From a virus, in the IMG/VR virus record IMGVR_UViG_3300033233_000006, positions 67,252-131,251 of that record: a stretch of 64,000 nucleotides of DNA; one strand, 5' to 3'. The notes under the pieces are model-generated. The model was not told the DNA's origin. It was given only the letters and a program-made list of their open reading frames with translations, and did no database searches. Numbering within the stretch: the stretch's first letter is position 1; every line of letters begins with the position of its first letter. Positions 61,636-61,820 of the stretch are shown in pieces. The translations under genes were made by a program, and so were the position numbers.

Positions 61636-61820
61636 GCGACTCGCCCACGAGCTGAGTCGCACCCCAGACTTCTCTCGCGTCACCCTTCATCGACGCCCGG
61701 TTCGTTCCGGGACCGCCGAATAGACTCGGGAGTACATCAAGCGATCGACCCCTTTGCTCCCTCGCGGAGCAGGGCTGGAGGTGCTAGCGTGACATACACG
61801 CGCGACCGTCCGTAGGACGG
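61636..61820 (+). ncRNA. Multi-hairpin RNA containing a circularly permuted Y RNA-like stem (unit 2)
   Basis: 3'-type strand (CTCTCGCGTC..CTTCATCGACG) precedes 5'-type strand (CGCCGAATAGACTCGGGAGTACATC); they pair and are joined by CCCGG-TTCGTT-CCGGG. Confidence 0.65.

What the first reader, a model, noticed from the sequence alone, without database searches (positions are those of the whole stretch)
61636..61820. Circularly permuted Ro-binding stem embedded inside a larger structured RNA
Seen: the 3'-type strand (61672-61695) lies upstream of the 5'-type strand (61714-61738). They pair (GACTCGGGAG/CTCTCGCGTC; CGCCGA/TCGACG), and the usual RNA termini are sealed by a CCCGG/CCGGG hairpin. The module is enclosed by GCACCCCAG (61659)/CTGGAGGTGC (61775) and flanked by further hairpins (GCGACTC/GAGTCGC, TGCTCC/GGAGCA, GCGTG/CACGC, CCGTCC/GGACGG). 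Inference: an inside-out Y RNA in which the Ro site is an internal aptamer; I know of no described example.
Basis: partly seen in the sequence, partly recalled or inferred. Interest (0 to 1): 0.78.

Follow-up and report, generated by a model that had tools for sequence, protein, structure and literature searches.

The report
Reversed Ro-binding stem in phage RNA
Beside a giant phage's Ro60-type gene lies an RNA stretch in which the two halves of the usual Ro60-docking stem come in swapped order and are sealed by a hairpin; the same swapped layout sits inside tRNA-shaped RNAs of other such phages, so it may be a new way to build a Y RNA, but it is not yet shown to work.

Summary
Every motif and pairing lies at the stated coordinates. 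The site is 694 nt downstream of a phage Ro60/Rsr gene. It sits in an RNA cluster with three normal-order Y-RNA units, a tmRNA and an anticodon-less tRNA mimic.

Both strands are real Y-RNA stem strands. Neither has a partner in the normal position. All other stem strands of the cluster pair off among themselves.

The key new result is a precedent. At least five clear elements in three other Rsr-encoding phage lineages carry the same reversed module, plus a less clear sixth in a fourth lineage. Each is a tRNA frame with the module in place of the anticodon loop, and the upper helix covaries.

Support for this particular copy is weak:
- fold z-scores run from -0.65 to -1.7;
- complementarity alone has p of about 0.1;
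- a covariance model of the precedents scores it no better than an ordinary junction between units;
- no homologue and no RNA data were found.

Verdict: probably (about 0.5) a working internal Rsr-binding arm, a new variant of Y RNA. A relic junction of two units remains a live rival (about 0.3).

The parts
59179..60978 (+). rsr: Ro60/Rsr orthologue. This is the longest ORF; the cluster representative is 582 aa, so the true start may be near 59230.
   Evidence: Pfam vWA_Ro60 5.9e-13 and TROVE 4.3e-7. 5591 homologues found; the best non-self hit is 64% identical.
61060..61128 (+). U1: normal-order Y-RNA hairpin (5' strand, short loop, 3' strand)
   Evidence: MFE equals the centroid at -23.5 kcal/mol, z -3.30, 0 of 200 shuffles as good. 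It is the reference copy of repeat family D1.
61138..61593 (+). tmRNA
   Evidence: Rfam RF00023, 117.9 bits, full length 1-374. ARAGORN did not call it.
61636..61660 (+). H0 hairpin GCGACTC/GAGTCGC, overlapping the enclosing helix by 2 nt
   Evidence: Pair probability 0.26-1.0 across the stem; the inner five pairs are about 1.0.
61659..61667 (+). P1 5' strand of the enclosing helix
   Evidence: 9 bp with 61775-61784; probability about 0.75.
61672..61695 (+). 3'-type strand of the Ro-binding stem: upper strand, 8-nt loop ACCCTTCA, lower strand
   Evidence: The loop plus lower-stem segment nearly equals that of the normal units at L149:1536-1560 and window 62685-62712.
61696..61711 (+). Cap hairpin CCCGG-TTCGTT-CCGGG that seals what are normally the RNA termini
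   Evidence: Present in the MFE and in the centroid; probability 0.77.
61714..61738 (+). 5'-type strand (GNCGAA motif at 61715-61720, upper strand, then TACATC)
   Evidence: 88% identical to the U1 5' strand. Hit by the 5'-strand HMM built from 127 units of other rsr loci.
61755..61771 (+). H2 hairpin TGCTCC/GGAGCA, in the position a T arm would hold but without a T-loop motif. It can instead pair with the two upper strands.
   Evidence: Probability about 0.9. The alternative pairing appears in the MFE.
61775..61784 (+). P1 3' strand
61787..61820 (+). Two further small hairpins (GCGTG/CACGC and CCGTCC/GGACGG)
61836..61908 (+). Anticodon-less tRNA mimic: cloverleaf with a 4-nt loop where the anticodon loop would be. 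Its D loop equals that of U4.
   Evidence: MFE equals the centroid cloverleaf at -30.5 kcal/mol. T-arm repeat family D2. Not called by ARAGORN or Rfam.
61908..61973 (+). U3: normal-order Y-RNA hairpin
   Evidence: MFE equals the centroid, z -2.19.
61983..62050 (+). U4 5' half: 5' strand, T arm 62026-62043, acceptor 3' strand
62082..62723 (+). HNH endonuclease ORF lying in the acceptor loop of U4. The start is inferred; the ORF as listed is 61917-62723.
   Evidence: Pfam HNH_repeat 2.1e-17 and HNH 1.2e-9.
62656..62712 (+). U4 3' half: acceptor 5' strand, D arm, 3' strand
   Evidence: Co-fold with the 5' half: lower stem 7 of 7, upper stem 9 of 10, a 7-bp acceptor helix, and D and T arms in the MFE.

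Best explanation
The stretch 61594-61835 ('X') is a Y-RNA-class partner RNA of the phage's Rsr (Ro60). In it the Rsr-binding stem is an internal, capped arm instead of the stem formed by the RNA's two ends.

Shown:
- The arm (61672-61732) keeps the parts of the normal module. These are the 5'-type strand with GNCGAA, an asymmetric internal loop (8 nt on one side, 3 nt on the other), and an upper helix with the U-A and U.G pairs that never vary in the reversed modules of other phages.
- Its lower stem is closed by a hairpin.
- Its upper end opens into a three-way junction closed by a 9-bp helix (61659-67 with 61775-84), with one side hairpin.

Inferred:
- X is cut out of an rsr-Y-tmRNA-X-tRNA-mimic-Y-Y precursor by tRNA-type processing. 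tmRNA 3' maturation would act on its 5' side, and RNase P at the tRNA mimic (61836) on its 3' side.
- Rsr docks on the arm through the 5'-type strand, as on normal Y RNAs.
- The rest of X plays the effector or gating part. For example it may tether Rsr to host PNPase, as described for D. radiodurans and for phage phiLo.
For: 1. Place. X lies 694 nt downstream of rsr on the same strand. No promoter-like or terminator-like site was found in 60800-62300. No ORF of 60 aa or more overlaps 61607-61916.

2. Both strands are true family members.

3. No partner in the normal place.
- The best partner downstream within 300 nt scores 12 of 16. Only 3 of 186 5' strands examined score 12 or less. One of the 3 is this strand. 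On inspection L093:1903 has a hairpin inserted in its 3' strand. The third I did not inspect.
- As far as 64000 the best partner scores 15 of 17, a level reached in 65 of 200 random stretches.

4. Book-keeping. The cluster holds four 5' strands and four 3' strands. U1, U3 and U4 pair off, which leaves exactly this pair.

5. Precedent. Reversed modules sit in tRNA frames beside phage rsr genes.
- L017:5370-5498 (=L019): Rfam tRNA 43.8 bits with a 61-nt insert.
- L026:5848-5988, 6061-6196 and 6199-6332 (=L027): MFE is a cloverleaf with a long arm, z -3.9, -1.9 and -3.1.
- L113:5763-5886.
- L021:5301-5423: Rfam tRNA 50.7 bits, but its module is less clear.
- All five clear modules fold, with MFE equal to the centroid, as upper stem, 8-nt loop, lower stem and cap.
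- In their alignment the upper helix has 39 of 40 cells paired and 6 of 8 pairs with changes on both sides; 0 of 500 shuffles reach the covariation score, and slid controls pair in 53% of cells at most.
- The window copy fits 7 of these 8 pairs, including both invariant ones (read from the sequence).

6. Energetics. The model is co-optimal with the MFE and is about half of the ensemble.
Against: - No relative of X could be found, so this copy has no covariation support.
- Fold z-scores are not significant.
- The duplex of the two strands (-13.5 kcal/mol) is weaker than those of U1 and U3 (-24.0, -20.9) and of the 62044-62075 strand first taken as U4's 3' partner (-17.5). It is no better than cross-pairs between units; for example, the U4 5' strand with this 3' strand gives -15.6. 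By pair count, the 3' strand fits the U4 5' strand as well as its own partner.
- 88 of 186 5' strands find a partner of 13 of 16 or better somewhere in the 110 nt upstream.
- The U3/U4 junction also folds into a weak reversed hairpin (-15.6 kcal/mol, z -0.25).
- The covariance model built from the five precedents gives this site 9.8 bits (E 6.4). The U3/U4 junction gets 9.0 bits (E 9.8) and an unrelated site gets 9.9 bits.
- X has no D-loop or T-loop motif, unlike every precedent.
- Each stem carries a mismatch.
- The locus has been rearranged by a mobile HNH gene, so relics are plausible.
Confidence: 0.5

Rival explanations
1. Relic junction. The 3'-type strand is what is left of one normal Y unit and the 5'-type strand is what is left of the next. 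Their outer halves were lost in rearrangements. They pair only because all units of the family share sequence. X has no function as a Y RNA.
For: - Tandem Y arrays are the rule near rsr, and in them a 3' strand is always followed by the next 5' strand.
- Such junctions fold back on themselves.
- The covariance model cannot tell this site from the U3/U4 junction.
- Cross-pairing between units is as strong as this pairing.
- The lower-stem strand TCGACG fits the CGTCGA of U4 and of the unit outside the window perfectly, but fits its neighbour CGCCGA with a mismatch.
- The cap resembles a decayed 5' strand: 75% identical to the U1 strand (family D3).
- A mobile HNH gene sits in the same cluster.
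Against: - It needs two clean losses, yet both surviving strands keep every family feature.
- No remnant of the lost halves rises above shuffled background in 61594-61671 or 61740-61835.
- Orphan 5' strands are rare (3 of 186 scored 12 or less).
- The strands are framed by a GC-rich cap and a 9-bp closing helix.
- Working reversed modules exist elsewhere.
Confidence: 0.3
2. Permuted gene for a two-piece Y RNA. The precursor folds, and then the cap (61696-61713) is cut out. This regenerates the usual termini and leaves two RNAs held together by the Ro stem. Permuted tmRNA genes give two-piece tmRNA in the same way, and RNase P nicks M. smegmatis YrlA.
For: - U4 of the same cluster must already work as two pieces, because a roughly 600-nt HNH ORF lies in its acceptor loop.
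- M. smegmatis YrlA exists as two halves bound to Rsr (PMC4201824, section 8).
- A61712 and C61713 and the 6-nt loop are unpaired and exposed.
Against: No processing signal is recognisable in the cap, which is not tRNA-like. In the tRNA-framed precedents the caps are 3-8-nt loops or short hairpins with nothing to cut out. There are no RNA data.
Confidence: 0.12
3. Chance resemblance: an unstructured or unrelated spacer that happens to hold Y-like words.
For: Fold z-scores are not significant. Complementarity has p of about 0.1.
Against: The 5' strand similarity is beyond all 100 shuffles. The GGASTACATC word is strand-specific and clustered. The 3' strand shares a 14-15-nt segment with two normal units.
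Confidence: 0.04

Closest known systems
YrlA / YrlB bacterial and phage Y RNAs (Chen et al. 2014, PMC4201824; Rfam RF02553, RF02565)
   Same: Encoded beside rsr on the same strand. The 5' strand has GNCGAA and the YUAY-type word after the stem. The stem is bulged by an asymmetric internal loop. Several units occur per locus.
   Different: In all characterised Y RNAs the Ro-binding stem is formed by the 5' and 3' ends (bioRxiv 10.1101/312249, introduction passage). Here the strand order is reversed and the stem is capped. There is no T or D arm inside the module, and no Rfam hit at E up to 10.
tRNA-framed reversed-order Ro modules found here (L017/L019, L026/L027 three copies, L113, perhaps L021)
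   Same: Same order (3'-type strand, cap, 5'-type strand, then UACAU). Same 8-nt loop on the 5' side. Same invariant U-A and U.G pairs. Same place just downstream of a phage rsr gene.
   Different: Those have 6-7-bp acceptor stems and canonical D and T arms. X has only a closing helix and a plain hairpin. Its cap is an 18-nt hairpin rather than a short loop, and its loop words differ (TTCA/ATA against CTTG/ATGC).
M. smegmatis YrlA, cleaved by RNase P in the acceptor loop and CCA-tailed (PMC4201824, section 8)
   Same: It shows that a Y RNA can have an open acceptor end and still stay on Rsr. This is the topology that a tRNA-order Y RNA encodes directly.
   Different: There the gene order is the normal (permuted-tRNA) one and the opening happens after transcription.
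Circularly permuted tmRNA genes giving two-piece tmRNA (Rfam RF04321 is in the library; the biology is recalled)
   Same: A structured RNA whose gene halves are swapped relative to the standard form, with the standard termini joined by a linker.
   Different: It is a different RNA family, and the tmRNA of this window is the standard one-piece form.
Thermus phage phiLo Ro60 with Yrl1/Yrl2 and host PNPase (PMC12135203, passages)
   Same: A phage-encoded Ro60 with phage-encoded Y-like RNAs carrying a CGAA motif. It gives a likely effector (host PNPase).
   Different: Yrl1 and Yrl2 are described with the canonical 5'-3' stem.

Membership tests
Y RNA of the bacterial/phage YrlA-YrlB kind | Encoded within about 4 kb of a Ro60 orthologue, on the same strand | tested here: met
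   TROVE/vWA_Ro60 ORF at 59179-60978 (+). The module starts at 61672 (+).
Y RNA of the bacterial/phage YrlA-YrlB kind | GNCGAA(N0-1)G motif on the 5' strand of the Ro stem | tested here: inconclusive
   GCCGAA lies at 61715-61720, but two bases, not 0-1, precede the next G. U1 of the same cluster shows the same deviation.
Y RNA of the bacterial/phage YrlA-YrlB kind | [quoted passage not shown] | tested here: not met
   The 3'-type strand lies upstream of the 5'-type strand, and the lower stem is sealed by a hairpin.
Y RNA of the bacterial/phage YrlA-YrlB kind | Match to the Rfam covariance models RF02553 or RF02565 | tested here: not met
   No such match at E up to 10 in 60900-62200. The same models do hit units in L017 and L143.
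Y RNA of the bacterial/phage YrlA-YrlB kind | tRNA-like T and D arms (YrlA only) | tested here: not met
   No T-loop or D-loop motif in 61594-61835. The nearest T arm is in the separate tRNA mimic at 61884-61901.
Y RNA of the bacterial/phage YrlA-YrlB kind | Binds Ro60/Rsr | not testable with these tools
   Needs EMSA or pull-down.
tRNA-framed reversed-order Ro modules (defined here) | Order: upper 3'-type strand, 8-nt loop, lower stem, cap, lower stem, 3-7-nt loop, upper 5'-type strand, UACA | tested here: met
   Same layout in the fold of 61670-61739 as in the five precedents.
tRNA-framed reversed-order Ro modules (defined here) | Invariant U-A and U.G pairs in the upper helix | tested here: met
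   Columns 5/59 and 7/57 are invariant in 5 of 5 precedents. In the window these are U61673-A61731 and U61675.G61729.
tRNA-framed reversed-order Ro modules (defined here) | Significant score with a covariance model of the module | tested here: inconclusive
   9.8 bits, E 6.4, second of three hits in the 64-kb window. The U3/U4 junction scores 9.0 bits. The model has only 5 sequences and 8 pairs.
tRNA-framed reversed-order Ro modules (defined here) | Acceptor stem plus D and T arms around the module | tested here: not met
X has only P1 and H2.

The most novel reading that the evidence does not exclude
Y RNAs come in a second, so far undescribed topology in which the Ro60/Rsr-binding stem is a capped internal arm. 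In several giant phages this arm replaces the anticodon loop of an otherwise complete tRNA, giving a tRNA-order counterpart of the circularly permuted YrlA. In this phage the tRNA frame has been stripped down to one closing helix and one hairpin. Ro60 could then be loaded onto internal sites of larger RNAs. YrlA and these RNAs would be related by circular permutation, which gives the proposed tRNA origin of Y RNAs a living intermediate.
Probability: 0.45. Interest if true: 0.75.

Novelty: new variant of a known kind. Interest (0 to 1): 0.6.

Why it matters
Every characterised Y RNA, from humans to bacteria, presents its Ro60 site in the stem made by its own two ends. Models of Ro60 gating and tethering build on that geometry.

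A capped, internal Ro site would show that free termini are not needed. It would also widen the search space for Ro60 ligands to internal arms of larger RNAs.

The tRNA-framed versions found here bear on two published ideas: that YrlA arose from tRNA, and that some YrlA may be processed into tRNA-like forms (bioRxiv 10.1101/312249, discussion passages).

Standard annotation misses all of these RNAs. Rfam and ARAGORN called none of the Y-type units in this window.

Tried and rejected
Searches for relatives of X, all empty or uninformative:
- blastn of 60900-62200 against 50,697 phage records: no match.
- The window's Rsr and the two nearest Rsr proteins as queries in IMG/VR: nothing above 46% identity.
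- Pattern for 3' strand plus spacer plus 5' strand: 0 hits.
- Pattern for the AATAG variant: 6 hits, all apparently chance or coding.
- Relatives of a virus record cannot be drawn.

Sequencing runs: no RNA holder listed. Laying two DNA runs gave no variants in X.

Methods that failed:
- The 3'-strand HMM from other loci does not see any 3' strand of this window.
- MAFFT misaligns the window module with the precedents, so no joint pair count was made.
- The order of HMM hits and my descriptor scan are too crude to list orphans. The descriptor scan gave 374 anchors: 235 canonical only, 69 both, 5 reversed only, 65 neither. It placed L017, L026a/b and L113 outside 'reversed only'.

ARAGORN with introns gave 107 calls over 128 loci plus the window, mostly joins of neighbouring elements. 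I inspected 21 of them.

Readings I dropped:
- L143 looked tRNA-framed, but its D arm and 3' strand belong to a normal YrlA hit (43.5 bits).
- My first guess for the 3' partner of U4 (62044-62072) was wrong.
- No tRNA frame could be fitted to X by hand.
- The idea that the tmRNA is enclosed by U1's 5' strand and this 3' strand fails (-11.4 kcal/mol).

Named phages: Myxococcus phage Mx1 has the nearest Rsr among named phages (42% identity). It shows only one normal-looking unit.

Papers: PMC10870794 is not held. Table S2 of PMC4201824 lists coordinates only. I did not open its other supplements.

Full report
**What the window is.** The window is the last 64 kb of a 131-kb IMG/VR phage record, estimated 46% complete. 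An identical Rsr protein was seen on a 254-kb contig, so this is a giant phage.

The ORF 59179-60978 (+) carries the TROVE and Ro60-vWA domains. It has thousands of Ro60/Rsr homologues.

Downstream, 60980-62080 has no ORF of 60 aa or more across 61607-61916. No promoter-like or terminator-like site was found in 60800-62300.

The stretch is packed with RNA elements:
- a full-length tmRNA at 61138-61593 (117.9 bits);
- four copies of a 24-nt word, at 61065, 61716, 61913 and 61986;
- three T-arm-like repeats.

The 24-nt word is the 5' strand of the bacterial Y-RNA stem. It carries the (G)NCGAA motif and ends in GGGA(C/G)UACAU, the YUAY word that starts the variable region of YrlA (PMC4201824, section 6). 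The same word follows rsr in many other loci. A profile of 127 such strands from other loci finds all four window copies among its five best hits in the 64 kb.

**The observation.**
- The upper stem pairs in 9 of 10 positions and the lower stem in 5 of 6.
- The cap is a 5-bp hairpin.
- The enclosing helix has 9 pairs and one bulged A.

Folded alone, 61668-61738 gives the proposed arm. Within 61594-61835 the arm has a pair probability of about 0.5, the cap 0.77 and the enclosing helix 0.75. The competing fold pairs the two upper strands with the two halves of the TGCTCC/GGAGCA hairpin.

So the description is right and the structure is thermodynamically plausible. It is not statistically outstanding: the z-scores are -1.27, -0.65, -1.1 and -1.68.

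The 5'-type strand is beyond doubt.

The 3'-type strand is only borderline by alignment score. However, its 8-nt loop and lower strand are almost letter for letter those of two normal units of the same genome. One lies outside the window (L149:1480-1562, z -2.46). The other is the 3' half of U4 at 62685-62712.

**The other units.**
- U1 (61060-61128) and U3 (61908-61973) are normal short hairpins (z -3.3 and -2.2).
- U4 turned out to be a full YrlA-type unit split by a gene.
  - Its 5' strand, T arm and acceptor 3' strand (61983-62050) are separated from its acceptor 5' strand, D arm and 3' strand (62656-62712). About 600 nt lie between them and hold an HNH endonuclease ORF.
  - The halves co-fold with a 7-of-7 lower stem, a 9-of-10 upper stem and a 7-bp acceptor helix.
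- The cluster therefore holds four 5' strands and four 3' strands. Three pairs are accounted for, and the flagged pair is what remains.

**Tests of the pairing.** These are sobering.
- Duplex energy for the flagged pair is -13.5 kcal/mol. The unit pairs as first drawn give -24.0, -20.9 and -17.5 (the last with a strand later found not to be U4's partner), and cross-pairs between units reach -21.
- By pair count the 3' strand fits the U4 5' strand as well as its neighbour.
- Among 186 5' strands, 88 find a partner of 13 of 16 or better somewhere in the 110 nt upstream.
- 21 of 200 random 119-nt stretches match the flagged 5' strand at 14 of 17.
- The U3/U4 junction also folds back weakly.

One thing is unusual: the lack of any normal partner. 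Only 3 of 186 5' strands have a best downstream score of 12 or less, and this is one of them. Nothing better than chance lies as far as 64000. No remnant of lost halves stands out in X.

**Precedent.** While checking other phage rsr loci I found that Rfam calls a tRNA at L017:5370-5498 with a 61-nt insert in the anticodon loop. The insert is a 3'-type strand, an 8-nt cap and a 5'-type strand ending in GGAACUACAUCC.

A screen with ARAGORN (introns allowed) followed by inspection gave further elements with 6-7-bp acceptor stems, D and T arms and the same insert:
- three in L026 (=L027);
- one in L113;
- a less clear one in L021 (Rfam tRNA 50.7 bits).

Their folds are cloverleaves with one long arm. 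The five clear modules share the layout upper stem, 8-nt loop, lower stem, cap. Their upper helix covaries strongly: 39 of 40 cells paired, 6 of 8 pairs changed on both sides, 0 of 500 shuffles as high, and slid controls at 53% or less.

In L026 the acceptor strands pair only in tRNA order, not in the order a tandem YrlA array would need (read from the sequence). One further candidate (L143) was rejected as a tandem junction.

All of these lie in viral contigs. None was seen among the metagenome loci that I inspected, but I looked at only 21 of the 107 ARAGORN calls.

**How the window copy compares.** It has the same order, the same 8-nt loop length and both invariant pairs. It lacks D and T arms, has a longer cap and has different loop words.

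A covariance model of the five precedents gives it 9.8 bits (E 6.4 in 64 kb). That is no better than the U3/U4 junction at 9.0 bits. Membership in the new class therefore rests on layout, not on score.

**Literature.** Passages of bioRxiv 10.1101/312249 state two things:
- All characterised Y RNAs hold the Ro60 site in the stem formed by their ends.
- YrlA resembles a circularly permuted tRNA that might be processed towards a tRNA-like form.

PMC4201824 (sections 6 and 8, Table S2) describes normal-order units only, and RNase P nicking of M. smegmatis YrlA. PMC12135203 (passages) describes phage phiLo Yrl1/2 with the canonical stem and a complex with host PNPase.

Four searches found no paper on a reversed or internal Ro site. 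The library lacks most subscription journals, and the 2020 review PMC10870794 is not held. Earlier notes of this scan describe tandem Y arrays and anticodon-less tRNA mimics, but no reversed Ro module.

**Verdict.**
- The most likely reading (about 0.5) is a working internal Rsr-binding arm in a roughly 240-nt RNA. This RNA would be released by tRNA-type processing between the tmRNA and the tRNA mimic.
- A relic junction of two units (about 0.3) and a permuted gene for a two-piece Y RNA (about 0.12) remain open.
- The reversed topology as such is real in other phages and, as far as I could search, undescribed.

Noticed in passing
L017:5370-5498 (=L019); L026:5848-5988, 6061-6196, 6199-6332 (=L027); L113:5763-5886; L021:5301-5423: tRNA-shaped RNAs just downstream of phage rsr genes. 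Each has an acceptor stem and D and T arms, and the anticodon loop is replaced by a reversed-order Ro-binding module. They look like a tRNA-order counterpart of YrlA.
   Followed up: partly
window 61983-62050 with 62656-62712, and ORF about 62082-62723: A YrlA-type unit (U4) is split in its acceptor loop by an HNH endonuclease gene. The halves still pair: lower stem 7 of 7, upper stem 9 of 10, and a 7-bp acceptor helix. The ORF's last codons overlap the D arm and the 3' strand.
   Followed up: partly
window 61836-61908: Anticodon-less tRNA mimic: a cloverleaf with a 4-nt loop in the anticodon arm. Its D loop AACGGCA is identical to that of U4, with the stem halves flipped. ARAGORN and Rfam both miss it.
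   Followed up: partly
window 61582-61593 and 61718-61729: The 3' end of the tmRNA (acceptor 3' strand and tail) is complementary in 11 of 12 positions to the flagged 5'-type strand (inverted repeat I10). About one such match is expected by chance in the cluster, so its meaning is open.
   Followed up: no
window 61052, 61129, 61592 (also 61627, 61976): A TTCAAC(A/G)C-type word, or ACAACC, precedes U1, the tmRNA, X and U4 (repeat families D4, D8). It may be a shared spacer or processing signal.
   Followed up: no
window 61060-61137, 61594-61835, 61908-61982; L149:1480-1575: In this phage each Y-type handle sits directly 5' of a tRNA-like element: U1 before the tmRNA, X before the tRNA mimic, U3 before U4, and the unit outside the window before a tRNA. 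RNase P could therefore set their 3' ends.
   Followed up: no
L149:1480-1562 (G000:C1 about 53495-53577): A fifth, normal-order Y unit of the same phage lies about 75 kb away from rsr, next to a tRNA gene (z -2.46).
   Followed up: partly
L033:3372-3510: A normal-order Y stem whose inner domain appears to be a tRNA-like body in ordinary D, anticodon-arm, T order, rather than the permuted T, acceptor, D order of YrlA.
   Followed up: no
window 61755-61771 with 61672-81 and 61723-32: The TGCTCC/GGAGCA hairpin can open and pair with the two upper strands of the module. This gives a fold as stable as the Ro-arm fold, so a conformational switch is possible.
   Followed up: no
window 52050-56970: An AAA (dynein-related/MoxR-like) ATPase ORF and a DUF2201 metallopeptidase/vWA ORF lie a few kb upstream of rsr.
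   Followed up: no
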